The notes below the pieces were generated by a model. That model searched no databases. It had not been told where the DNA came from and saw nothing but the letters and a program-made list of their open reading frames with translations. Shown piece after piece: positions 921-10,960 of a stretch of 13,132 bases of DNA. Position 1 is the stretch's first letter. Every line of letters begins with the position of its first letter. The position numbers were made by a program, and so were the translations under genes. Source of the DNA: Acidobacteriota bacterium (GTDB taxonomy: Bacteria > Acidobacteriota > JBCCFW01); NCBI GenBank assembly GCA_039029535.1, contig JBCCFW010000201.1, positions 1 through 13,132 of the forward strand. Direction: 5' to 3'.

Positions 921-1907
921 ATGAGCGAGCGTCTCGCCTTCGTCACCGGAGGCACGGGCTTCGTCGGCGCGGCGGTCATCCGCGCGCTGTGCGCGGAGGG
1001 CACGCGGGTGCGCGCGCTCGTGCGTCCGGGCTCGGACCGCAGCAACCTCGCCGAGCTCGACGTCGAGCTGGTCGAGGGCGACCTGTCGTCCCGGGAGGCC
1101 CTGCTCGCGGGGATGACCGGCTGCGACGAGGTCCATCACTGCGCGGCGCTCTACGCCTTCTGGTCGGCAGACCCCGCCGAGTTCATCGAGAGCAACGTCG
1201 AGGGCACGCGACGCATCATTCAGGAGGCCGTCGAGGCGAAGGTGTCCCGCTTCGTGCACTGCAGCTCGGTCGCGACGGTCGCCCCCATCCGGGGGAAGGC
1301 GGCGACCGAGGACTCGCAGGCCGACCCCGACAAGGCGCCCGGCCCCTACAAGCGGAGCAAGATCCTCTCCGAGCACGAGGCCTTGCGCCTGGCTGGCGAG
1401 GGCGCGCCGGTGGTGGTGGTCAATCCAGCGGCTCCGGTCGGTCCCGGCGACATCAAGCCCACGCCCACCGGCCAGATGGTCCTCGACTTCCTCGAGGGTC
1501 GGATGCCCGCCTTCGTCGACACGAGCCTCAACGTCGTGGACGTGGACGACGTCGCGCGCGGTCACCTGCTCGCCGCGCGGAAGGGTCGGGTCGGCGAACG
1601 CTACATCCTCGGGGGCGAGAACCTGACTCTCGAAGAGATCCTCGGGCTGCTCGCCGAAGCCAGCGGTCGCAAGGCGCCGACCTTGTGCCTTCCGCACTGG
1701 GTCCCGGAGATGGTCGCGCGTTTCTCCGAAGCCTGGGCCAAGGTGTCGGGCCGACCGCCCCGCGTCGCCTTGGAGTCGGCGCGGCTCGCCCGTCACCACA
1801 TGCGCTTCGACGACACCAAGGCCCGCGAGGAGCTCGGGCACTCCTCCCGCCCGGCCCGCGAGGCCCTGACGCGGGCGGTGGAGTGGTTCACGCGTGATGT
1901 CGGCTGA
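921..1907 (+). CDS. NAD(P)-dependent epimerase/dehydratase, extended SDR family (HpnA / dihydroflavonol-reductase-like sugar epimerase fold).
   Basis: ATG at 921 lies 20 nt after the aminopeptidase stop. The N-terminal Rossmann motif is FVTGGTGFVGAAV and the catalytic YxxxK is PYKRSK. The product is 328 aa and ends with TGA at 1905-1907. Confidence 0.8.
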   Translation: MSERLAFVTGGTGFVGAAVIRALCAEGTRVRALVRPGSDRSNLAELDVELVEGDLSSREALLAGMTGCDEVHHCAALYAFWSADPAEFIESNVEGTRRIIQEAVEAKVSRFVHCSSVATVAPIRGKAATEDSQADPDKAPGPYKRSKILSEHEALRLAGEGAPVVVVNPAAPVGPGDIKPTPTGQMVLDFLEGRMPAFVDTSLNVVDVDDVARGHLLAARKGRVGERYILGGENLTLEEILGLLAEASGRKAPTLCLPHWVPEMVARFSEAWAKVSGRPPRVALESARLARHHMRFDDTKAREELGHSSRPAREALTRAVEWFTRDVG

Positions 1908-1938
1908 AGCGCCCCACGAGCCGATGGAGAAGAGAGGC

Positions 1939-2712
1939 ATGCTGCACGTCCTCGGAGCGATCGCCCTGCTCGTCCTCGGCTGGGCGACCCTCCTCTTCTT
2001 CGCGCAGCGTCAGCTTCTCTTTCCTGCCCCCCCAGCCCCCGTGGCTCCCCCGCCTCTACCGACCGACGCCGAGCGCGTCGAGCTCGGACCCGACGCGGTC
2101 GAGGCCTTCTACTTTCCACCCCGCGGAACGACGCCCGGCCCCGTCGTCGTCTACACCCACGGCAACGGCGAGCTCATCGACTACTCGGTCCGCGAGGTCG
2201 AGGACCGACGACAGCGAGGGCTCGGGCTGCTCCTCGTCGAGTACCCGGGCTACGGTCGCTCGGGCGGACGACCGAGTGAGGCGAGCATCACGACGACCAT
2301 GCTCGCGGCCCACGACTTCCTGACCCAGCGTCCCGAGGTCGACGCCGCGCGCATCGTCGCCCACGGACGCTCGCTCGGCGGCGGCGCCGCCTGCGTGCTC
2401 TCGCGTCACCGGCCGCTGGCCGCGCTCGTGCTCGAGTCGACCTTCACCAGCGTGCGGGCCTTCGCCCCTCAGTTCGGGATGCCGGGCTTCCTCGTCCGTG
2501 ATCCCTTCGACAACCTCGGGGCAGTGAAGGTCTTCGACGGACCGATCCTCCTGATCCACGGTGACCATGACGAGGTCATCCCACCCTCGCACGCCACCGA
2601 GCTCGCCGACGCCATCGGCGGCGAGGTGCAGTGGCTGCCCTGTGGTCACAACGACTGTCCGCCACCGTGGTCGAGGATCGAGACCTTCCTGTCCGAGCAC
2701 GACTTGCTCTGA
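1939..2712 (+). CDS. Membrane-anchored alpha/beta-fold serine hydrolase, ABHD13/ABHD17-like (Hydrolase_4 type).
   Basis: One N-terminal hydrophobic helix (MLHVLGAIALLVLGWATLLFF) is followed by HGNGE, a GxSxG nucleophile elbow (HGRSLGGG), the catalytic Asp region (LLIHGDHDEVIP) and the His motif (CGHND). I prefer the ATG at 1939 because GGAGAAGAGAGG sits just upstream. In-frame alternatives are GTG 1894 (ORF-track start), ATG 1897 and ATG 1924. These overlap the epimerase stop. Confidence 0.75.
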   Translation: MLHVLGAIALLVLGWATLLFFAQRQLLFPAPPAPVAPPPLPTDAERVELGPDAVEAFYFPPRGTTPGPVVVYTHGNGELIDYSVREVEDRRQRGLGLLLVEYPGYGRSGGRPSEASITTTMLAAHDFLTQRPEVDAARIVAHGRSLGGGAACVLSRHRPLAALVLESTFTSVRAFAPQFGMPGFLVRDPFDNLGAVKVFDGPILLIHGDHDEVIPPSHATELADAIGGEVQWLPCGHNDCPPPWSRIETFLSEHDLL

Positions 2713-4029
2713 CGAAAAAAAGCCGCCCGACCGGCCCCGGACGATGCCGGGGCAGGCCGGACGACGTGCTCCCTCCCGCGCTCCCACGCACGCGACCGGC
2801 CTCGGTCTCCCGTGGGGGTTGCTCGGGGATCGGGAGCACCAGGGTCTCCCCCCTGTCATCCATTGCTGGCACGCGCTAGAGCTGCGAGCAGCTCGCTGGT
2901 GCGTGCCGACCTCGATCTTCGGCAGGACACCCTCGCCGACGACCAGGTTCACCGTGCCGACCCTCTCAGCCAGCTCGGCGTAAGCCTCCAACTCCTTCAA
3001 ACGCTGAAGGACCGGATGGTCCGCCATGACCTGCGCCGTCTGGGCCAGCGAGCGCGTGGCGGCCGCCTCCTCACGTCGGGTGATGACGTTGGCCTCGGCC
3101 TCCTTGCGCGCCTCGATGACCCGGTTGAGCAACTCACGCATCTCGCCGGGAAGGACCAGGTCCTTCACGACGACACGCTCGACCACGAGACCGACCGCCT
3201 CGGCCCGGGCTCGGACCTCGGCGAGCAGCCCCTCGGTCAGCGCGACGCGATCGGCGAGCAGCTCGTCCAGGGACCGCGAGGTCACCGCCTCGCGGGCGGC
3301 GACCTGCACGGCCAGGTAGAGCACCTCGTCCGCATCCTGCGCCGTGCCCACGAGACGCCGGGCGTCGGCCACGTGGTACTCGGCCGCCAGGTTGAGCCGC
3401 AGGCTCACGCGGTCGGAGGTCATGACCTCCTGGGCGTTCACCTTGAGCTGACGCTGACGCAGGTCGACGGTCGTGTAGCGCACGTCGTTCTCGACTCGCC
3501 ACGCGGCGTGACGACCCGGACCGAGCTCGGCGTCGACGACCCCATCGACGAGACGCAAGGCCACCGCACCCTGGGGCACGGTCGTCTCCACGTAGTCGGT
3601 GGACGGGACGAGACGCACGAGCTCACGCGCCAGCGGCGCCGTCTCGACGCCCGAGACGTCGACGATCTCCACGTCGATCGCCTTCTCCACGTGGACGTGA
3701 CCGTTCACGCGCCGACGGCTCGTCGCCACGGTCCAGATCGCGTGCTCGCCGTGACCCAGCCACAGCACCGGCACCCCGGCCCGACGCACGAGCGCTCGCT
3801 CGGTGCGACCGAGACGCACGACCTGAACGTCACCGTGCGCGACCAGCGCCAGCTCGTCCGGCCGCAGCCGTGCGAGGAGCACGTCGGTGTCGTGGTGGGT
3901 CACCGTCAGCGGACCCGGCCAACGCCAGAGCCGATGGACGCCCTCACCGAGGTACCGCACCGGTCGACTCCGTCGCGTGACGAGGACGCGCTCGCCCGGC
4001 GCGACCTCGATTCGCTTGCTGAGAATCAT
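2056..4029 (-). CDS. SPFH/band-7 domain protein (stomatin/slipin-like). No predicted transmembrane helix. The last ~290 codons of the listed ORF are probably not genuine protein.
   Basis: ATG at 4029 has a strong Shine-Dalgarno (AAGGAGAGAGTC) upstream. The SPFH core is recognisable (LGPGRHAAWRVENDVRYTTVDLRQ ... VKDLVLPGEMRELL ... coiled-coil EARKEAEANVITRREEAAA ... VNLVVGEG). Homologues end shortly after this point. Here the frame stays open, crosses the terminator at 2715..2762 and continues codon-aligned antisense to the hydrolase until TAG at 2056. Confidence 0.7.
   Translation of the reverse strand: MILSKRIEVAPGERVLVTRRSRPVRYLGEGVHRLWRWPGPLTVTHHDTDVLLARLRPDELALVAHGDVQVVRLGRTERALVRRAGVPVLWLGHGEHAIWTVATSRRRVNGHVHVEKAIDVEIVDVSGVETAPLARELVRLVPSTDYVETTVPQGAVALRLVDGVVDAELGPGRHAAWRVENDVRYTTVDLRQRQLKVNAQEVMTSDRVSLRLNLAAEYHVADARRLVGTAQDADEVLYLAVQVAAREAVTSRSLDELLADRVALTEGLLAEVRARAEAVGLVVERVVVKDLVLPGEMRELLNRVIEARKEAEANVITRREEAAATRSLAQTAQVMADHPVLQRLKELEAYAELAERVGTVNLVVGEGVLPKIEVGTHQRAARSSSACQQWMTGGRPWCSRSPSNPHGRPRPVACVGAREGARRPACPGIVRGRSGGFFSSEQVVLGQEGLDPRPRWRTVVVTTGQPLHLAADGVGELGGVRGWDDLVMVTVDQEDRSVEDLHCPEVVEGITDEEARHPELRGEGPHAGEGRLEHERGQRPVTREHAGGAAAERASVGDDARGVDLGTLGQEVVGREHGRRDARLTRSSARATVARVLDEEQPEPSLSSVLDLADRVVDELAVAVGVDDDGAGRRSAGWKVEGLDRVGSELDALGVGR
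2715..2762 (-). terminator. Intrinsic terminator for minus-strand transcription: a GC-rich hairpin followed by T7 on the minus strand.
   Basis: On the plus strand an A7 run is followed by the inverted repeat GGCCCCGG-acgatg-CCGGGGC(A)GGCCGG. Read on the minus strand this is a hairpin followed by TTTTTTT. It lies just outside the hydrolase stop and inside the read-through tail of the SPFH ORF. Confidence 0.5.
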
Positions 4030-4233
4030 GACTCTCTCCTTCCTATCCGAAGCAACTCGCCCATGGAAGAGGTGCCGGCCGCTCCCGCTTCGCGGTCACC
4101 GTCCCTCCGTCGTCTCTCGCCGCGTCCGCGGTGACGGGTCGTCGCTCCGATGGACCCGTCCACGAGCGACACGTCGCTGGTGAACGAATTGATCGAAGCG
4201 AGGACGTCGTCCCGGTGACGGGAACGAGGAGAC

Positions 4234-4254
4234 GACCGGTTCGGCGAACCGGTC
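4234..4254. promoter_or_regulatory. Perfect 21-bp palindrome GACCGGTTC-ggc-GAACCGGTC.
   Basis: It reads the same on both strands. It sits about 14 nt 3' of the tRNA end on the minus strand and about 200 nt upstream of the SPFH start codon. It could be a tRNA 3' processing or terminator hairpin, or an operator. Confidence 0.35.
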
Positions 4255-4267
4255 ACGGCCGACACCT

Positions 4268-4343
4268 TGGTGTGGATGAGGGGATTCGAACCCCCGACCG
4301 ACAGGTCTTCAGCCTGTTGCTCTACCTGCTGAGCTACGTCCGC
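4268..4343 (-). tRNA. tRNA-Phe (anticodon GAA)-like gene with encoded CCA. The acceptor stem carries two C-A mispairs, so it may be a variant or a pseudo-tRNA.
   Basis: The minus strand reads GCGGACG-TA-GCTC-AGCAGGTA-GAGC-A-ACAGG-CTGAAGA-CCTGT-CGGTC-GGGGG-TTCGAAT-CCCCT-CATCCAC-A-CCA. This gives a full cloverleaf: a D arm with G18G19, a 5-bp anticodon stem, loop CU-GAA-GA and a T loop TTCGAAT. Positions 2:71 and 6:67 are C-A, and position 37 is G rather than A. Confidence 0.65.
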
Positions 4344-4659
4344 GTTCTCGAATCTCTCGAGTTGCCTCGTGGCACTTGCCCGACCTTCACGCGCTCGATC
4401 GACGACCAAGCCCAGCCCGCAGCGACACCTGGAAGCTCCAGGCGCACCGGGAGGGCTGCCACGCCGAGCGCAGCCGAGCAAAGTCTTCTTCTGTTTGGTT
4501 TGGAGTGAACGGATGTGGTGAATGACGACGAAACGGACGGGTGCACGAGGCCCGCCTCCGCAGGGCTCATGCCGACTCCCTCCGCCGGCACGAGAACCCG
4601 TCACGTCGACACGGGACTCGTCTGACCCCCGTCACTCAGGTGAGCGACGGGGGGCTAGG

Positions 4660-4696
4660 ACGCGAAAAGGGCCGGTCCCTTGCGGTTCCGGCCCTT
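4660..4696 (-). terminator. Intrinsic terminator on the minus strand, downstream of the candidate small gene.
   Basis: On the minus strand GGGCCGG-aaccgcaaggga-CCGGCCC is followed by TTTTCGCG. It is preceded by two further hairpins (CCCCGTCACTC/GAGCGACGGGG, and CTGAGT..ACTCAG with GCAGC..GCTGC). Confidence 0.5.
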
Positions 4697-4741
4697 CCGA
4701 CGAGTGCAGCTTCGAGGCTGCGTGCTGAGTGACTCAGCGGG

Positions 4742-4906
4742 TCATCGGAGGACCGTCCCTTCCACGCCGGCGTCGGTGCCCCTGGGGGATCCGAGGCCGT
4801 CCAAGAGGGAGATCGCATTCGCGTCGGCAGGGCAGACCATCGCCTGGTGCCAGGGCGTGCTCGCCTTGGCCGCCGGACGGGCTGGACTGTCGTGTCTCGG
4901 GAACAT
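4742..4906 (-). CDS. Candidate small protein of 54 aa (MFPRHDSPARPAAKASTPWHQAMVCPADANAISLLDGLGSPRGTDAGVEGTVLR). Function unknown.
   Basis: On the minus strand a sigma-70-like promoter (TTGACC, 17 nt, TACATT) sits about 35 nt upstream of a consensus Shine-Dalgarno AGGAGG (GAGAGGAGGTCCC-ATG). The in-frame ATG follows (internal Met of ORF-track 4742..5020), then stop TGA, then three hairpins ending in the 4660..4696 terminator. Confidence 0.35.
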   Translation of the reverse strand: MFPRHDSPARPAAKASTPWHQAMVCPADANAISLLDGLGSPRGTDAGVEGTVLR

Positions 4907-4931
4907 GGGACCTCCTCTCGGAGCAAGAGAC

Positions 4932-4966
4932 GGGAATGTAAGACAGGCACGCAATGAGGTCAAGCC
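4932..4966 (-). promoter_or_regulatory. Putative sigma-70-type promoter for the small gene (-35 TTGACC, -10 TACATT). Coordinates are approximate.
   Basis: The minus strand reads cTTGACCtcattgcgtgcctgtctTACATTcccgtct. The spacer is 17 nt, and the segment is locally AT-enriched. Confidence 0.35.
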
Positions 4967-5043
4967 CACACTTTGATTTCGATGACATTGCGAGCCTTCA
5001 CGGGGCATTGCGGCACGCAAGCCAGCCCTCTCGCAGGCGCTGC

Positions 5044-5121
5044 CCGAACAAACACGAGGCCCCGAACTGTTGTTCGAACAGCTCGGGGCCCCAAGACTCG
5101 TCTCACCCGGGGTGAGACGAC
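5044..5121 (-). terminator. Tandem hairpins directly 3' of the giant gene on the minus strand. Likely its terminator.
   Basis: CGTCTCACCC-g-GGGTGAGACG occupies about 5099-5119, and GGCCCCGAACTGTTG-ttcg-AACAGCTCGGGGCC about 5058-5090. On the minus strand the second is followed by TCGTGTTTGTTCGG. Confidence 0.45.
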
Positions 5122-5128
5122 GGCACGT

Positions 5129-8100
5129 TCACTCGCAGTTCATCGGGTCGGTCGCCTCGAGGACGAGCTGGACCCAGCCGTCATTGCCGCCGACCTTCTC
5201 GCTCTGGCCATCACCATTGACGACCCACGCGTAGTGGTTGTTCCACGCATGGGGGTCGAACACGCCGGTGAGATCGGCCGTCTGCGACACGTGATGCGTG
5301 CTGGCGCCCGGATTGCCGACGTCGCGGAAGTCGATGTCGGTGAGTCCCTGCATGATGTGGCTGGGCACGCCCGAAGCGGGGGTCCAATCGGGCCTTCCGG
5401 CCATCATCCGGAAGATGACCAGGGGATCGAGCTCGACTGCCGTCTCCCAGATCGGCGTCGCCTCTGCCGTCGCCATGCGCTCGTCCGTCGGATGGAGCGG
5501 CAGCTCGAGGTGCACCATCTCGAGACCCGGAAGGAGCTCGCCGGAGACCGGATCGAGCGGCGACGCCAGGGTGTTGGGCGCCGGACCCGTGTCGTTGGAG
5601 GGAATGAGCAGGTGGAGCACCGCCCCGTGAACGAGGTCGTCGCCCGCGATCCGGAAGCGCCGCGGCACCACGTGACGGAGGGAGCTGAACCCGAAGATCT
5701 CGGTCCCTCCGCTCGCGAAGAGCAGGCCGAGCTGGTAAGCCCGAATCGTGTGTGAGGTGTTGGGCCTCAACTGCTCGGTCGGCGTCCAGCCAGAGACGAA
5801 CAACGGGACGCATTCGAGCGCCGAGTTGGGAACCGCCGGCTCGAAGGTCAAGTTGGTCGGCGGCGGCAAGGAGATGACGGTGGGGGCCGGCTGGCCGGTG
5901 GGGCTCGCCACCCGACGCTCGCTTCCCAGCGGCGTGGAAGTCACGGTCATCCAGGCAGGACCATGGCCAGCGAGGGTCTCGAGCTCCTGGCGGCTGAATG
6001 ACGGTGACCCGCTACCGAAGACGGTCTCCTCACGATAGCGACGCGGATTGCCGGCTGGATCGGTGGCATCGGAAGAGGGGTCGTAGATCCAGCCCCTCTC
6101 GTGAATCGTCGCGAAGGCAGGGTCCCCGATGCCCATCCGGACCACGAGGCCGGCATTGGCGATGTCCGCCTGATCCTCGGCCAGGTCCCAGTCGGCGGCA
6201 TGGGTACCGACCGTGAAGTTCGTCATCGAGAAGGTTCGGCCCACCACCGGGGCCGTGCCGAAGTCGAACTCGTGCAGGAACTGAGCGAGCCACCCGCCTC
6301 CCGAGGGGCTGAACTGTGACACGAACGCATTGATCGTCTCGTCCGGATTGTCCCCCCCCACGGTAGTACCTCGCACGCCAGCGTGATTGAGGCCTTCGAA
6401 CCCCGTGATCGGCGAGACGGACATGGTGGTCGTGCTGGCGGGCGTGAACCCATTGATCTCGCGACGCGCTTCCTTCTGGAAGAGACCGCGGAGAGCCGCT
6501 CCCTCCATGGGTCGGACTGCCGGATCCTCGGGAGCATTCGGAGGCGTGAAGGTCGAGCCCGTGTCGAAGGGTTGATCCTCGTGGAACCCGGACGGTAACG
6601 AGAGGGTGTTGTCACTGCCCTCGGGCAGGGCGTGGCAATGCGCGCAGGCGGGGTCGACGCCGGGGTTCGCTGGCACGATGTGAAACAGCTTCATGCCGCG
6701 CAGGGCCCCCGAGCCCTGTGTCGGATCGTTGTAGCCCGCCGGCGTTTGGCTCGGGTTCAGCTTTCCCGAGAACTCTCTCGTCTTGAGCTGCTTGGGGTTC
6801 GGCGGATAGTGAATGGAGTTGATGAACTCCTCGAAGACCGCGATCTCGTCATCGTCGAGGATGCGGTCACGGCCGAGGAGCCCCACGAACGCGCCGTTGA
6901 AATCCTGGAAGGTGTTCCGGTCGCCACGCCAGTGGTACGGCGCGTTGGTCACCAGCCGTTGGCTGGTGGTCGTGAGAGGCTGACCCGTGACGGGATCCGT
7001 CGGAGTCAAGTCACCGATCGGAGCGACCTCATGGTTCAGGAGCCCCTGGAGCGACTGGGTCACCATGTAGCGTTTCGGCGCGCCGAAGCGCAGCTCGTTG
7101 TTGAGATTGGGAGGTCCGACGTCGGTCGTGACCACGGTGAGGAGCTGCTCGGGGACGCAGGATGCTCCGGCAAAGGCATCACCGGCATCCATCGCGGTGA
7201 CGTCCCCGTCACAGTCACAGTCACCGACCTCGGACACCTCGATGACGGTGTCCCCATCACAGTCGACACCATTGAGGCAGGTCTCTCCTGCCGTGACGTC
7301 GACGTCGGCGACACCATCGCAGTTGCAGTCACCCACCTCGACCGGATCGATGATGGTGTTCCCGTTGCAATCGAGCCCCTTGACGCCAGGAAGGCCACCA
7401 CTGAGGTCCCAGGCCAAGCCGTCGGTCCGACCGTCGACGTGGCAGCTCGCACAGGAGTCGAAGCCGTTGCCGGAGAGCCGGGCGCTGTACAAGAACTCTC
7501 GGCCTTCCTTGACGTAGTCCGGCGTCGGGTCGTGGAGGTCCCAGGGCCACTCGAGATGGGGCATCGTCGGACCGTTGGGATTGAAGACCGTGATCGAGTT
7601 GGACACGCGATTGAGGATGATGAGACGGTCGGGCTGACCGGACTCCCCTTCCTGCAGGGCGAGACCACGAGGACCGGCCATCGGGCTGGGCTCGGGCACG
7701 ACATCGAAGCTCTCGACCAGCCAATCGTCAGTGTTGGCCCCAGTCAGCGTGACGCGTCCGATTCGGTCGCTCCCGAAAGCCGCGATGAGCACCTGTTTCT
7801 CGCCACTCGCGCTCTCGTGAACGATGATGTCGGTGGGCTGCACCAGAGCCCGACTGCGATCGACCGGCATCTCGGCCCCACTGACGAACATCGCATTGAG
7901 ATCGCGGGACAGGACCGTGGGAGTCGGCGAGCAGGGGTCGGGGATGACGTAGAGGAAGCTCTCGACGAAACCGGTGCTGAGGAGCGAAACGGCGTGCTCA
8001 CCGTGCACGCCGGCCTCGCGGTTCAGCGCCCTGGCACCCACCACGTAGAGCGTGCCTGCATCGTCGAAGGCCATGTTCCAGTTGGTGGTCCCGAGACCAC

Positions 8101-9139
8101 CACGGATGCGGGAGTCAGCACGGCGGCTGAAGGGCGAGGGACCGCCGAGGAGCGACTTGGAGGTCTGCGACCAGAGGTCGGCGTCGTAGCGGAAGCCACG
8201 CACGGTGTCCTCGCTCTGGTGTGAGCCGCCCAGGTGTCCCAGCACGAAGAGCCGATCACAGGTCGGGTCCGGGCTCGTGTCGAGAGTCCAGGGCTGCTTG
8301 AGGGCGAAGGTGTCGATCCGGAAGTCCCCGAAGACGTCATCGGGGGTCAGCCCGTCGCCATTGATGTCGTCCATGGCGTCGATGTCGCCGTCGAGGTCGA
8401 CATCGTTGGTGGCCGTCGGAACGAAGCGGCGGAAGCGCTCGGCTCCTCCCGGAAGAGTGCACATCGGGTCGACCTCGGGGTGACAGCCCGGGACGAGGTT
8501 CTCGTAGTCACCCTCCACGGTGGCCAGGGTCACCGGATCGTAGATGCCGAGCGTGTCCAGGGTCATGTGGGTGACCACGAGCACGGTCATCGGCAGGCCC
8601 GTCCCCGGCGCTCCCACGTCCACTTCGGTCATGTCGAGCGGCTCGTCCATGACCTCGATGGTCTTGAAGTCGAACATCCGGAGCTCGTCGACGCTCTTGG
8701 GGTCCTTGGGATCGGCGGCGGTCCAGACCAACTGGCCGGTGGTGATCGAGTCCCCGAGGAAATTCGCCACGTGGAAGCGCCCAAGAGTCTGCGACCAGCG
8801 CACCGAGACGGGCTCGAGCCCGGTCGGGATGCGCATCTCGAACTGCCCCTGGATGGCCATTCCCTGGGTGGCACCGTAGATCTCGAGCGAGTTGTCCGGC
8901 GTGTTCACGACGAGCAGGAAGTCCTGCTCCTCACCGGTCTTGGTGTCCTGAAGAGTGATGAGCTCGAGCGGATGGACCTGAGGACTCTCGACGTTGTAGT
9001 AGTCAGTCCGGCCTTGCGCCCAGGCCGGGGCGGCCGGCGTGAGGGAAACCAGGAGCGCGAGGGCCCCCAGTGCCCCCACTCGGAGCTCGCGAGTGAGGTG
9101 CGCGCGAACCGTTCGACGTGCTGGCTTGCGGTGGAACAT
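5129..9139 (-). CDS. Large secreted multidomain protein of 1337 aa. It has a Sec signal peptide, beta-propeller (YVTN/NHL-like) repeats, EF-hand/dockerin-like Ca2+ loops, a di-heme cytochrome c peroxidase/MauG-like core (two CxxCH) interrupted by Cys-rich Ca-binding tandem repeats, and a C-terminal domain of about 270 aa with no recognisable similarity.
   Basis: I prefer ATG at 9139 because GGGAGG lies 3 nt upstream and it begins a textbook signal peptide (MFHRKPARRTVRAHLTRELRVGALGALALLVSLTPAAPAWA/QG). The ORF-track start GTG 9358 adds 73 non-signal residues and is less likely. Propeller-blade motifs include VVNTPDNSLEIY, VANFLGDSITTG and ILNRVSNSITVFN. Heme 1 is LYSARLSGNGFDSCASCH (codons 7453..7439) and heme 2 is KLFHIVPANPGVDPACAHCH (about 6632..6646), with APYHWRGD between them. 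Stop TGA is at 5129-5131. Confidence 0.8.
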   Translation of the reverse strand: MFHRKPARRTVRAHLTRELRVGALGALALLVSLTPAAPAWAQGRTDYYNVESPQVHPLELITLQDTKTGEEQDFLLVVNTPDNSLEIYGATQGMAIQGQFEMRIPTGLEPVSVRWSQTLGRFHVANFLGDSITTGQLVWTAADPKDPKSVDELRMFDFKTIEVMDEPLDMTEVDVGAPGTGLPMTVLVVTHMTLDTLGIYDPVTLATVEGDYENLVPGCHPEVDPMCTLPGGAERFRRFVPTATNDVDLDGDIDAMDDINGDGLTPDDVFGDFRIDTFALKQPWTLDTSPDPTCDRLFVLGHLGGSHQSEDTVRGFRYDADLWSQTSKSLLGGPSPFSRRADSRIRGGLGTTNWNMAFDDAGTLYVVGARALNREAGVHGEHAVSLLSTGFVESFLYVIPDPCSPTPTVLSRDLNAMFVSGAEMPVDRSRALVQPTDIIVHESASGEKQVLIAAFGSDRIGRVTLTGANTDDWLVESFDVVPEPSPMAGPRGLALQEGESGQPDRLIILNRVSNSITVFNPNGPTMPHLEWPWDLHDPTPDYVKEGREFLYSARLSGNGFDSCASCHVDGRTDGLAWDLSGGLPGVKGLDCNGNTIIDPVEVGDCNCDGVADVDVTAGETCLNGVDCDGDTVIEVSEVGDCDCDGDVTAMDAGDAFAGASCVPEQLLTVVTTDVGPPNLNNELRFGAPKRYMVTQSLQGLLNHEVAPIGDLTPTDPVTGQPLTTTSQRLVTNAPYHWRGDRNTFQDFNGAFVGLLGRDRILDDDEIAVFEEFINSIHYPPNPKQLKTREFSGKLNPSQTPAGYNDPTQGSGALRGMKLFHIVPANPGVDPACAHCHALPEGSDNTLSLPSGFHEDQPFDTGSTFTPPNAPEDPAVRPMEGAALRGLFQKEARREINGFTPASTTTMSVSPITGFEGLNHAGVRGTTVGGDNPDETINAFVSQFSPSGGGWLAQFLHEFDFGTAPVVGRTFSMTNFTVGTHAADWDLAEDQADIANAGLVVRMGIGDPAFATIHERGWIYDPSSDATDPAGNPRRYREETVFGSGSPSFSRQELETLAGHGPAWMTVTSTPLGSERRVASPTGQPAPTVISLPPPTNLTFEPAVPNSALECVPLFVSGWTPTEQLRPNTSHTIRAYQLGLLFASGGTEIFGFSSLRHVVPRRFRIAGDDLVHGAVLHLLIPSNDTGPAPNTLASPLDPVSGELLPGLEMVHLELPLHPTDERMATAEATPIWETAVELDPLVIFRMMAGRPDWTPASGVPSHIMQGLTDIDFRDVGNPGASTHHVSQTADLTGVFDPHAWNNHYAWVVNGDGQSEKVGGNDGWVQLVLEATDPMNCE
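9017..9139 (-). other. Signal peptide of the giant protein. Predicted cleavage after AWA.
   Basis: A positively charged n-region (HRKPARRTVRAH), a hydrophobic core (LRVGALGALALLVSL) and an AxA site (PAWA-QG). Confidence 0.6.
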
Positions 9140-9197
9140 GGGCCTCCCGAGAAAGTCGTGGCCGACCCGTGACACGGCCGGCCGGGTGACCGACCGA

Positions 9198-9210
9198 GTT
9201 CCTGGAACTG
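9198..9210. promoter_or_regulatory. Perfect 13-bp palindrome AGTTCC-W-GGAACT, about 60 nt upstream of the giant-gene start codon. Candidate operator.
   Basis: Plus strand AGTTCCTGGAACT equals its reverse complement. It lies in the 5' region of the minus-strand giant gene. A second hairpin, CCTGACG-actccca-CGTCAGG, sits near 9306-9330. Confidence 0.35.
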
Positions 9211-9374
9211 GCCGGCTACTCTCGACAACGGGGCTGCGAGCCCAGTGCGCAGGCAAATCGCCGAGCTCGTCCCGATCCGCCGCGGTCGCCACTCCCCCGG
9301 GAGGACCTGACGACTCCCACGTCAGGCAATCCGGTGACCTAGCGGACGCTGACCGCACGGCCGTGGAGAGCGGT

Positions 9375-9559: not shown

Positions 9560-10960
9560 CTAAAACGCGGCCGAGCGTCGCGTGCGCGGGTACGGGATGA
9601 CGTCGCGGATGTTGGCCATCCCCGTCACGTACTGGAGGCAGCGGTCGAGCCCCAGCCCGAAGCCCGCGTGGGGCGTCGTGCCGTAGCGGCGGAGATCCCG
9701 GTACCACCAGTAGTTCTCGATGGGCAGGCCGGTCTCGCCGATCCGCTCGTCGAGGACGTCGAGACGCTCCTCACGCTGGCTCCCTCCGATGATCTCGCCG
9801 ATCCCCGGGGCCAGCACGTCCATCGCGGCGACCGTCTTCTGGTCGTCGTTGAGACGCATGTAGAAGGCCTTGATCTCCTTCGGATAGTTCATGACCACCA
9901 CCGGCCGGCCGACGTGCTCCTCGGTGAGCCAGCGTTCGTGCTCGGACTGGAGGTCGGTCCCCCACTCCACCGGGAACTCGAACGTCTTGCCCGAGTCCTG
10001 CAAGGCCTTCACGGCGTCGCCGTACTCCATCCGCTCGAAGCTCGCCTCGACGAAGCGCTCGAGGCGCTCCACCGCGGTCTTCTCGATGCGCTCGGCGAAG
10101 AACGCCATGTCGTCGCCGCGGGTGTCGAGGACCTCCCGGAAGATCGACTTGAGCATGGCCTCGGCCAGGTCGGCGTCGTCGGAGAGATCGGCGAAGCTGA
10201 TCTCCGGCTCGACCATCCAGAACTCGGCCAGGTGACGCGAGGTGTTCGAGTTCTCCGCCCGGAACGTCGGGCCAAACGTGTAGACCTTGCTCAGCGCCTG
10301 GCAGAAGCCCTCGACGTTGAGCTGACCCGACACGGTGAGGAAGGCCTCCTTGCCGAAGAAGTCCTGCTCGAAGTCGGGTGACCCCTCCGGCGTGAGCGGC
10401 GTGTTGACCAGGTCCAGGGTCGAGACCCGGAACATCTCCCCCGCCCCCTCGCAGTCGGAGGCGGTGATGATCGGGGTCTGCACCCAGTAGAAGCCGTTCT
10501 CGTGGAAGAAGCGGTGAATCGCCTGGGAGAGGGCGTGCCGAACCCGCGCCACCGCCCCGAAGGTGTTGGTGCGGGTGCGCAGGTGCGCGACCTCCCGAAG
10601 GTACTCGAAGCCGTGACGCTTCGCGGCAATCGGGTAGGTGTCGGGGTCCTCGACCCAGCCGACGACCTCGATGCTCTCCGCCCGGATCTCGACCGACTGC
10701 CCCTTGCCCTTGGACTCGACCAGCTCGCCGGTGACCGACACCGAGCAGCCCGGGCCGATCTTGAGCACCACGTCCTCGTAATTGGCCAGGTCCTTCGGAG
10801 CGACGACCTGCAAGTTGTCGAAGCAGGAGCCGTCGTTGACCTGAACGAAGCTCAGGCCCGCCTTGGAGTCGCGGCGGGTGCGCACCCAACCGCGAATCGT
10901 GACGCTGGAGCCGACGCTCGGGGAACCGCTGAGAACCGAAGAGATGCTGACCGTGGACAT
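9560..10960 (-). CDS. asnS: Asparagine--tRNA ligase (asparaginyl-tRNA synthetase, class IIb).
   Basis: The 466-aa product has an OB-fold anticodon-binding N-terminus ([24 protein letters not shown]). It carries the class II motifs [33 protein letters not shown] and [11 protein letters not shown] at 10960 has GGAGG 9 nt upstream. Stop TAG is at 9560-9562. Confidence 0.95.

What the first reader, a model, noticed from the sequence alone, without database searches (positions are those of the whole stretch)
4742..4975. Self-contained small gene (54 aa) with near-consensus promoter, AGGAGG and terminator between the giant gene and the tRNA
In a genome where most genes here have weak or GC-shifted signals, this roughly 230-bp unit on the minus strand has an unusually complete set. 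It has a -35 TTGACC and -10 TACATT promoter, a consensus Shine-Dalgarno AGGAGG, an ATG and a stop, followed by three hairpins ending in a GC-stem/TTTT terminator. The predicted peptide is Pro/Ala-rich with a single Trp, His, Met and Cys clustered together (TPWHQAMVCPAD). I recognise no homology. It could be a small regulatory protein or a metal- or heme-associated peptide. A purely speculative further possibility is a substrate or partner of the neighbouring MauG-like oxidase, since MauG and MbnH modify Trp residues of partner proteins. Alternatively the transcript might act as an sRNA and the ORF could be incidental.
Basis: partly seen in the sequence, partly recalled or inferred. Interest (0 to 1): 0.6.

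Follow-up and report, generated by a model that had tools for sequence, protein, structure and literature searches.

The report
Orphan 54-codon gene with strong signals
A compact promoter, ribosome-binding site, 54-codon reading frame and terminator sit between a giant haem-protein gene and a tRNA in an uncultured Acidobacteriota genome; it is probably a real but ordinary lineage-specific small gene, with no detectable relatives and no sign of a link to its neighbour.

Summary
The promoter is the only sigma-70-like site in the 13-kb contig. The AGGAGG is the strongest Shine-Dalgarno in the window and the only AGGAGG followed by an ATG. The combination never occurred in 20 Mb of simulated sequence. 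Excess RNA structure lies only in the 3' hairpin cluster, not in the ORF body. Third-codon-position GC (GC3) rises inside the ORF and that frame scores best of six.

Coding status is not proven. Codon usage is intermediate (likelihood ratio about 1). AlphaFold finds no fold. The ORF is absent from the NCBI-sourced proteins of the collection. The peptide has no homologue in 5.8 billion protein clusters, 1.84 billion representatives, Pfam, NCBIfam, PHROGs, PADLOC or PDB. The organism has no close relatives in public data, so frame conservation cannot be tested.

The MauG/MbnH-partner idea is not supported. The giant gene has its own terminator, the peptide lacks a signal peptide, and three homologous loci have no such ORF. 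The best reading is a monocistronic mRNA of about 265 nt for a cytoplasmic, probably disordered orphan small protein (confidence about 0.55). Interest is low to moderate.

The parts
5055..5093 (-). Intrinsic terminator of the upstream giant gene (17-bp stem, tail TGTTTGTTCG). It marks the upstream boundary of the small unit.
   Evidence: the only terminator-like site reported by the scan, I2
4935..4963 (-). Sigma-70-type promoter: -35 TTGACC (4963..4958), 17-nt spacer, -10 TACATT (4940..4935). The inferred transcription start is near 4931..4926.
   Evidence: 9 of 12 matches, 0.1 expected; the only such site on either strand of the window; no other site even with relaxed criteria in 5128..4330
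4911..4916 (-). Shine-Dalgarno AGGAGG (the extended match AGGAGGT pairs with the 16S 3' tail), 4 nt before the ATG.
   Evidence: -12.5 kcal/mol, strongest in the window; the giant gene uses GGGAGG with a similar 3-nt spacing; the only AGGAGG + ATG in the window
4742..4906 (-). ORF of 54 codons plus TGA: MFPRHDSPARPAAKASTPWHQAMVCPADANAISLLDGLGSPRGTDAGVEGTVLR. It is 5.6 kDa with pI 6.7 and has no hydrophobic segment.
   Evidence: The same ORF was called by the gene caller of the Logan assembly. It is not among the NCBI-sourced proteins.
4724..4738 (-). 3' UTR hairpin 1 (GCUGAG-UCA-CUCAGC), starting 3 nt after the stop codon.
   Evidence: -8.2 kcal/mol
4706..4721 (-). 3' UTR hairpin 2 (GCAGC-CUCGAA-GCUGC).
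   Evidence: -8.1 kcal/mol
4663..4698 (-). Terminator-like hairpin: GGGCCGG..CC-GCAA-GG..CCGGCCC followed by UUUU. The predicted 3' end of the transcript is near 4663.
   Evidence: -24.4 kcal/mol, I17; (3' UTR z = -4.7). The pattern scan did not report it because the T run has only 4 T.
4626..4653 (-). Fourth strong hairpin (12-13 bp, no U tract) just beyond the terminator. It could be a second transcription or exonuclease barrier between this unit and tRNA-Phe.
   Evidence: I4; -25.5 kcal/mol; z = -6.5 when included

Best explanation
The unit is most likely an independently transcribed, monocistronic small mRNA of about 265 nt, running from about 4928 to about 4663 on the minus strand. A near-consensus sigma-70 promoter starts it. 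A 5' UTR of about 20 nt carries the best Shine-Dalgarno in the contig. Ribosomes would translate a 54-residue, 5.6-kDa, soluble, cytoplasmic peptide rich in Pro, Ala and Gly that is probably disordered. A cluster of hairpins ending in a GC stem plus UUUU terminates and stabilises the transcript before tRNA-Phe.

What the sequence shows: the signals, their order and spacing, their joint improbability, the frame-specific GC3 rise, and the confinement of RNA structure to the 3' end.

What is inferred: that the promoter fires, that the ORF is translated, and what the peptide does. My best guess is that it acts like most characterised bacterial small proteins, by binding and modulating a larger partner. 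The only candidate functional patch is the W19-H20-x-x-M23-x-C25 cluster. I regard it as a lineage-restricted, possibly young, orphan gene that is not functionally tied to the neighbouring di-haem protein.
For: - The promoter is the only sigma-70-like site in the window.
- It has the strongest SD among the gene starts tested, with a spacing like that of the giant gene.
- It is the only AGGAGG + ATG in the window.
- Promoter + AGGAGG + start + ORF of at least 50 codons occurred 0 times in 20 Mb of Markov sequence, roughly 0.3 or fewer per 6-Mb genome before the terminator is required.
- The ORF frame has the best codon log-likelihood of six frames: +0.12 against -0.07 to -0.93.
- GC3 is 0.83-0.90 in windows inside the ORF, 0.43-0.57 just upstream and 0.70-0.77 downstream. 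Overall GC3 is 0.82, like the giant gene's 0.83.
- The 5' UTR plus ORF has no excess RNA structure (z = -0.22), while the 3' UTR does (z = -4.7 and -6.5). That is the pattern of an mRNA with a terminator, not of a structured RNA.
- The giant gene's own terminator lies upstream.
- An independent gene caller predicted exactly this ORF.
- None of the overlapping ORFs in the other frames matches any Pfam family.
Against: - There is no homologue anywhere: only itself in 5.8 billion clusters; only tandem-repeat artefacts among 1.84 billion representatives; nothing in JGI metagenome contigs, IMG/VR or plasmids; nothing significant in Pfam, NCBIfam, PHROGs, PADLOC or PDB.
- Codon usage does not discriminate. 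The codon log-likelihood is below 99.4% of true-frame windows and above 92% of off-frame windows. CAI of 0.60 is the 8th percentile of true windows and the 89th of stop-free off-frame windows. The ORF has seven or eight rare codons.
- AlphaFold2 on the single sequence gives pLDDT 60, pTM 0.13 and no secondary structure.
- The ORF is not among the NCBI-sourced proteins in the collection, although its neighbours are.
- The gene caller that did predict it also called a spurious 192-aa ORF across the tRNA.
- Five-mer SD + ATG combinations occur at 4-5 non-start positions in the window.
- There are no expression data.
Confidence: 0.55

Rival explanations
1. It is a small regulatory RNA, or a dual-function RNA whose main activity is base pairing. 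The promoter and terminator make a transcript of about 265 nt, and the ORF is incidental or secondary.
For: - A strong promoter plus a strong terminator flanking about 265 nt in an intergenic region is the classical sRNA gene layout.
- The whole transcript folds with z = -2.9 to -3.0.
- The peptide has no homologue and no predicted fold, and codon usage is indecisive.
- Dual-function RNAs of this size are documented (PMC12310071 and PMC12612679, found).
Against: - The structure excess comes entirely from the 3' hairpins. The 187-nt body has z = -0.22, and 1 of 22 coding control windows reached the whole-transcript z score.
- No Rfam family matches, even at E up to 10.
- The predicted helix between the SD and an internal CUCCCUCU is no better than in shuffles (p = 0.42).
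- A perfect AGGAGG 4 nt from an ATG, about 12 nt from the transcription start, is very unlikely in a purely non-coding RNA, on the order of 1e-3 or less by base composition (inference).
- GC3 periodicity coincides with the ORF.
Confidence: 0.12
2. It has no function. The signals are a chance constellation or the decayed 5' remnant of a former gene in a long (785-bp) intergenic spacer, and any product is biologically irrelevant.
For: - There is no conservation of any kind.
- The peptide is low-complexity, and AlphaFold2 predicts no fold.
- Codon usage lies at the low edge of real genes.
- Open frames are uninformative in this GC-rich DNA.
- A second SD-like + ATG ORF (4570..4334, 78 aa) runs into the tRNA and is surely spurious, so such look-alikes exist here.
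Against: - The full composite was never seen in 20 Mb of simulated sequence.
- It uses the only promoter-like site and the best SD in the contig.
- The stop codon is followed within 3 nt by a significantly structured hairpin/terminator block.
- GC3 rises exactly within the ORF.
Confidence: 0.2
3. The promoter mainly serves tRNA-Phe, 585 nt downstream. The ORF and hairpins would lie in a long leader, with read-through of a weak terminator.
For: - No promoter-like site lies between 4934 and the tRNA start at 4343, even with relaxed criteria.
- The terminator has only four U.
- The unit and the tRNA are on the same strand.
Against: - Two strong hairpins (-24.4 and -25.5 kcal/mol) lie between the ORF and the tRNA.
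- The scan finds no promoter for any other gene in the window, so the absence of one upstream of the tRNA says little.
- A 585-nt leader with a perfect SD and an ORF is not a known tRNA gene layout (own knowledge).
- The ORF is not a Phe-rich attenuation leader: it has 1 Phe in 54 residues.
Confidence: 0.08
4. It is a substrate or partner peptide of the neighbouring di-haem (MauG/MbnH-like) giant protein, which would oxidise its single Trp to build a W/H/M/C metal site.
For: - It is adjacent to a protein with two CxxCH motifs and weak, sub-threshold local matches to CCP_MauG and the MbnH family.
- MbnH converts a Trp of MbnP into kynurenine, which together with His and Met binds copper (PMC11951088).
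- The W-H-x-x-M-x-C cluster has a permutation p of 0.006, chosen post hoc.
Against: - The two are separate transcription units, with a terminator between them.
- The peptide has no signal peptide or hydrophobic segment (maximum Kyte-Doolittle 1.06), whereas the giant protein has one (2.56) and c-type haem proteins mature outside the cytoplasm (own knowledge).
- There is no similarity to MauA or MbnP, or to any other family.
- Three loci encoding homologues of the giant protein have different downstream genes and no tblastn match to the peptide.
- No similar peptide occurs among the proteins of the same sample, although the MAG has at least six paralogues of the giant protein.
Confidence: 0.03

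Closest known systems
Unannotated or orphan bacterial small proteins (sORF-encoded proteins of about 50 aa or fewer) on short monocistronic mRNAs, for example the small mRNA with an extended SD in Bradyrhizobiaceae (PMC5711450)
   Same: It is a short stand-alone transcript with its own promoter and terminator, an unusually strong SD and a very short ORF. It appears to have been missed by the standard annotation pipeline.
   Different: The Bradyrhizobium case is conserved across a family and experimentally ribosome-associated. Here there is no relative at all and no expression evidence, and the ORF is longer (54 aa against 14 aa).
Dual-function sRNAs (SgrS/SgrT, RNAIII/Hld, SR1/SR1P, Spot 42/SpfP; reviewed in PMC12310071 and PMC12612679)
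   Same: Transcript size of about 200-500 nt, an intergenic location, its own promoter and Rho-independent terminator, and a small ORF inside.
   Different: No base-pairing seed or conserved structure can be shown. The ORF fills 62% of the transcript and starts about 22 nt from the 5' end, which looks like a plain small mRNA.
MauG-preMADH and MbnH-MbnP pairs (a di-haem peroxidase-like enzyme plus its Trp-containing protein substrate)
   Same: It lies next to a di-haem CxxCH protein and has a Trp beside His and Met in the peptide.
   Different: It is not co-transcribed, has no signal peptide, has no homology to MauA or MbnP, does not co-occur in homologous loci, and is 54 aa instead of a folded protein substrate.
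Type I toxin mRNAs (hok, tisB and similar)
   Same: A small ORF of about 50 codons. A fold-back that sequesters the SD is predicted in the minimum-free-energy structure.
   Different: The peptide is not hydrophobic. The fold-back is no better than in shuffled sequence. There is no antisense promoter.

Membership tests
Protein-coding small gene (generic criteria) | Ribosome-binding site at a proper distance from a start codon, an in-frame stop, and transcription signals | tested here: met
   AGGAGG, 4 nt, ATG; duplex energy -12.5 kcal/mol, the best in the window. Promoter. Terminator.
Protein-coding small gene (generic criteria) | Codon usage or composition typical of the genome's genes | tested here: inconclusive
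   It is the best of six frames and GC3 rises locally. But the codon log-likelihood is below 99.4% of true windows and CAI is at the 8th percentile, so the likelihood ratio is about 1.
Protein-coding small gene (generic criteria) | Reading frame conserved in related genomes under purifying selection | not testable with these tools
   No relatives exist in the collections. The peptide matches only itself. The nearest slipin homologue is 58% identical. Internal 34-37-mers of the tRNA are absent from the GTDB species representatives and from JGI metagenomes.
MauG/MbnH substrate partner (MauA/MbnP-like) | Encoded in the same operon as the di-haem enzyme | tested here: not met
   The giant gene ends with its own terminator at 5093..5055, and the small ORF has its own promoter at 4963..4935.
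MauG/MbnH substrate partner (MauA/MbnP-like) | Exported to the compartment of the c-type haem enzyme (signal peptide) | tested here: not met
   The maximum 11-residue Kyte-Doolittle hydropathy is 1.06, against 2.56 in the giant protein's N-terminus. There is no twin-arginine or Sec-like N-region.
MauG/MbnH substrate partner (MauA/MbnP-like) | Sequence homology to MauA or MbnP, and co-occurrence with homologues of the enzyme | tested here: not met
   No Pfam or NCBIfam hit. No tblastn match in L002-L005, whose downstream genes differ: PEPCK, a 146-aa ORF and a 206-aa ORF.
Known RNA families (Rfam 15, including 6S RNA and the acidobacterial motifs) | Covariance-model score at or above the gathering threshold | tested here: not met
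   Only tRNA passes. The best other matches are terminator-like hairpins at E of 0.13 or worse, far below the gathering scores.
Dual-function sRNA | Discrete small transcript with its own promoter and terminator that contains a translated sORF | tested here: inconclusive
   The layout is predicted from sequence. Transcription and translation cannot be tested here.
Dual-function sRNA | A base-pairing region or structure beyond that of an mRNA | tested here: not met
   The body has z = -0.22. The helix between the SD and the internal CU-rich segment has p = 0.42 against shuffles.
Type I toxin | Hydrophobic membrane peptide with an overlapping antisense RNA | tested here: not met
   GRAVY is -0.24 and there is no transmembrane segment. 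There is no promoter-like site on the plus strand.
Transcription-attenuation leader peptide for Phe | A run of Phe codons followed by alternative terminator and antiterminator structures | tested here: not met
   One Phe in 54 residues.

The most novel reading that the evidence does not exclude
The unit is a recently born, lineage-restricted (possibly de novo) small protein gene. It would already have optimal expression signals but still have near-intergenic codon usage, no fold and no homologue. Its W-H-x-x-M-x-C patch could give it a metal-binding (Cu(I)-type) or redox role in the cytoplasm. A more exotic version, in which it is a Trp-bearing substrate of the adjacent di-haem protein, is nearly excluded.
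Probability: 0.1. Interest if true: 0.5.

Novelty: new member of a known kind. Interest (0 to 1): 0.22.

Why it matters
If it is translated, this would be one more example of the many small, taxonomically restricted proteins that standard annotation misses. Here the ORF is absent from the NCBI-sourced protein set, while a more permissive gene caller predicted it. It sits in a poorly sampled Acidobacteriota lineage. It could serve as a test case for young or orphan genes: strong expression signals combined with unadapted codon usage and no fold. It answers no long-standing question, and there is no evidence tying it to the interesting neighbouring di-haem beta-propeller protein family.

Tried and rejected
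1. SD-sequestering fold-back. The MFE and partition function pair 4922..4909 with 4814..4800 at P of about 0.97. Duplex energies against shuffled downstream sequence are the same (p = 0.42), and real coding windows do as well. It is not a feature.
2. A 6S-like or otherwise structured RNA body. The 5' UTR plus ORF has z = -0.22 and Rfam finds nothing.
3. A mobile-element or MITE reading, based on the 14-nt direct repeat GGGT[G/C]AGACGAGTC next to hairpins on both sides (5108..5095 and 4628..4615, D3). About 0.25 such repeats are expected by chance in this region by my estimate, and the window has no further copies. I dropped it.
4. Operator-like CGCAATG repeats. All three copies in the window lie at 4950..5012 around the promoter. 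But a triple 7-mer occurs in 2% of random and about 5% of real 120-nt windows, so this is only weak.
5. An alternative coding frame or gene remnant. Eight overlapping ORFs on both strands have no Pfam hit at E up to 1.
6. Comparative analysis. Searches with the peptide, the giant protein, the slipin and tRNA segments found no close relative. The other contigs of the same MAG were not retrievable.
7. The phmmer hits P0107-P0112. They are tandem-repeat proteins with many weak repeated stretches and are not homologues.
8. The MauG-partner hypothesis (see rivals).

Full report
**Source and context.** The window is a complete 13,132-bp contig of an NCBI metagenome-assembled genome labelled Acidobacteriota bacterium. 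The 1,336-aa version of the giant protein is AAF533_26855. An identical 3.4-kb contig occurs in the Logan assembly of run SRR22824298.

Gene order on the minus strand is:
- AsnRS (10960..9560)
- the giant protein (9139..5129 from the NCBI start)
- the small unit
- tRNA-Phe(GAA) (4343..4268)
- a slipin/SPFH gene (4029..)

.

The giant protein has a signal-peptide-like N-terminus and two CxxCH motifs. It gives only sub-threshold local matches to CCP_MauG and the MbnH family. It has at least six paralogues in the same MAG.

On the minus strand:
- the -35 TTGACC is at 4963..4958, the spacer is 17 nt, and the -10 TACATT is at 4940..4935
- AGGAGG is at 4916..4911, the ATG at 4906 and the TGA at 4744..4742 (54 codons)
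- hairpins lie at 4738..4724 and 4721..4706
- a GC-rich stem with UUUU lies at 4698..4663
- a further 12-13-bp hairpin lies at 4653..4626

. The giant gene ends with its own 17-bp terminator and T-rich tail at 5093..5055, so the small unit is bounded on both sides.

**Is it more than chance?**
- The promoter is the only site meeting the scan's criteria in 1.6 kb, where 0.1 is expected. My re-implementation finds no other on either strand of the whole contig.
- The SD/anti-SD duplex (-12.5 kcal/mol) is stronger than at any other gene start tested: giant -10.3, AsnRS -9.5, slipin -8.1. The 4-nt spacing resembles the giant gene's GGGAGG-3 nt-ATG.
- It is the only AGGAGG followed by an ATG in the window. 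Five-mer SD + ATG combinations occur at nine starts, about half of them not gene starts.
- In 20 Mb of second-order Markov sequence trained on the window there were 224 promoter-like sites. None was followed by AGGAGG + start + ORF of at least 50 codons, and 5 were with a 5-mer SD. That implies roughly 0.3 or fewer per genome before a terminator is required.
- The 3' UTR is far more structured than shuffles, with z = -4.7, and z = -6.5 with the fourth hairpin.
- The open frame itself means nothing, because five of six frames are open here.

**Coding or not?**
- The ORF's frame has the best codon log-likelihood of six: +0.12 against -0.07 to -0.93. That value is lower than 99.4% of 54-codon windows from real genes of the contig and higher than 92% of off-frame windows.
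- A synonymous-only index (CAI 0.60) sits at the 8th percentile of true windows and the 89th of stop-free off-frame windows.
- Both measures give a likelihood ratio near 1.
- GC3 is 0.82 overall, the same as the giant gene's 0.83. It rises to 0.83-0.90 only inside the ORF, against 0.43-0.57 upstream and 0.70-0.77 downstream. This is modest positive evidence.
- The 187-nt 5' UTR + ORF shows no excess RNA structure (z = -0.22; coding controls have mean -0.83). That fits an mRNA rather than a structured RNA.
- AlphaFold2 without an alignment gives pLDDT 60 and no secondary structure.
- The peptide is neutral (pI 6.7) and Ala/Pro/Gly-rich, without a hydrophobic segment.
- The Logan gene caller predicted exactly this ORF, but it also called a spurious ORF across the tRNA.
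- The ORF is not among the NCBI-sourced proteins, unlike its neighbours.

**Homology and comparative evidence: none.**
- The peptide matches only itself among 5.8 billion clusters.
- In an exhaustive phmmer search of 1.84 billion representatives, the six other hits are tandem-repeat proteins scoring through many weak repeated stretches.
- Nothing turned up in JGI metagenome contigs, IMG/VR or plasmids.
- Nothing significant turned up in Pfam, NCBIfam, PHROGs, PADLOC or PDB.
- No Rfam family matches the region.
- The organism has no close relatives in the collections. The best non-self homologue of the giant protein outside this MAG is 41-42% identical. The best slipin is 58% identical. Internal segments of the tRNA-Phe gene have no exact match in 185,579 species representatives or in JGI metagenomes.
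- Other contigs of the MAG could not be fetched.

Frame conservation and covariation therefore cannot be tested with public data.

**Link to the neighbouring di-haem protein.** MauG and MbnH act on exported, co-encoded protein substrates, and MbnH makes a kynurenine that binds copper together with His and Met (PMC11951088). Here:
- the two genes are separate transcription units
- the peptide has no export signal, while the giant protein does
- three loci encoding homologues of the giant protein (a JGI contig, GCA_027069135 and Acidobacteria bacterium Mor1) carry unrelated downstream genes and no tblastn match

The W-H-x-x-M-x-C cluster is unlikely under permutation (p = 0.006), but the pattern was chosen after looking. 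I rate this idea at about 3%.

**Leads that dissolved.**
- The minimum-free-energy structure sequesters the SD in a 14-bp helix with an internal CUCCCUCU. Shuffled sequences do as well (p = 0.42).
- A 14-nt direct repeat flanking the unit is within chance.
- All three CGCAATG heptamers of the window cluster at the promoter. Comparable triples occur in 2-5% of 120-nt windows.

**Verdict.** The unit is most probably (about 0.55) a genuine, monocistronic, orphan small-protein gene whose product is cytoplasmic and disordered.

| Rival reading | Estimated probability |
|---|---|
| Functionless chance constellation or gene remnant | about 0.2 |
| sRNA or dual-function RNA | about 0.12 |
| Long leader or promoter for tRNA-Phe | about 0.08 |
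| Partner of the di-haem protein | about 0.03 |

It is a new member of a known kind (unannotated lineage-specific small ORFs) and of low to moderate interest. Read-level population genetics, metatranscriptomics and peptide detection would decide it.

Noticed in passing
window 4268..4343 (-): The tRNA-Phe(GAA) gene has two C:A mismatches in the acceptor stem (2:71 and 6:67). It also has G rather than A at position 37 and an unusual D-loop (AGCAGGTA). It still scores 64 bits. Its internal 34- and 37-nt segments have no exact match in the GTDB species representatives or in JGI metagenomes. It may be an atypical or degenerate tRNA copy.
   Followed up: partly
window 2056..4029 (-): The slipin/SPFH ORF is 657 aa, and NCBI annotates it that way. 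All homologues are 360-385 aa and cover only about 56% of it. The extra C-terminal 280 aa or so have off-frame composition (GC by codon position 0.73/0.82/0.56) and overlap the convergent alpha/beta-hydrolase gene at 1894..2712 (+). This probably reflects a lost stop codon, or an assembly or sequence error near 2900.
   Followed up: partly
window 4334..4570 (-): A second SD-like site (GGAGGGAG) lies 5-8 nt before an ATG at 4570 and opens a 78-aa ORF that runs 10 nt into the tRNA-Phe gene. Its GC3 is only 0.70 and it matches no family. It is almost certainly spurious and is a useful reminder of the local false-positive rate.
   Followed up: yes
window 5129..9358 (-): The giant protein (1,336-1,409 aa) has a beta-propeller-like N-terminal part and two CxxCH motifs. 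It belongs to a family with at least six paralogues in this MAG and relatives in marine Acidobacteriota and Myxococcota MAGs. Many more distant relatives are annotated as YVTN beta-propeller plus CCP_MauG proteins. Its function is unknown and no gene neighbourhood is conserved across the loci examined.
   Followed up: partly
window 4950..5012: The only three CGCAATG heptamers in the contig lie at about -81, -61 and -25 (inverted, in the promoter spacer) relative to the inferred transcription start. The -81 copy is part of the palindrome TTGCG-TGC-CGCAA. They could be operator half-sites, but the statistics are weak.
   Followed up: yes
window 4226..4260 (-): A perfect 10-bp palindrome (GACCGGTTCG-C-CGAACCGGTC, 4254..4234) lies just downstream of the tRNA-Phe 3' end. 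It is a likely terminator or processing hairpin for the tRNA, without a clear U tract (I9).
   Followed up: no
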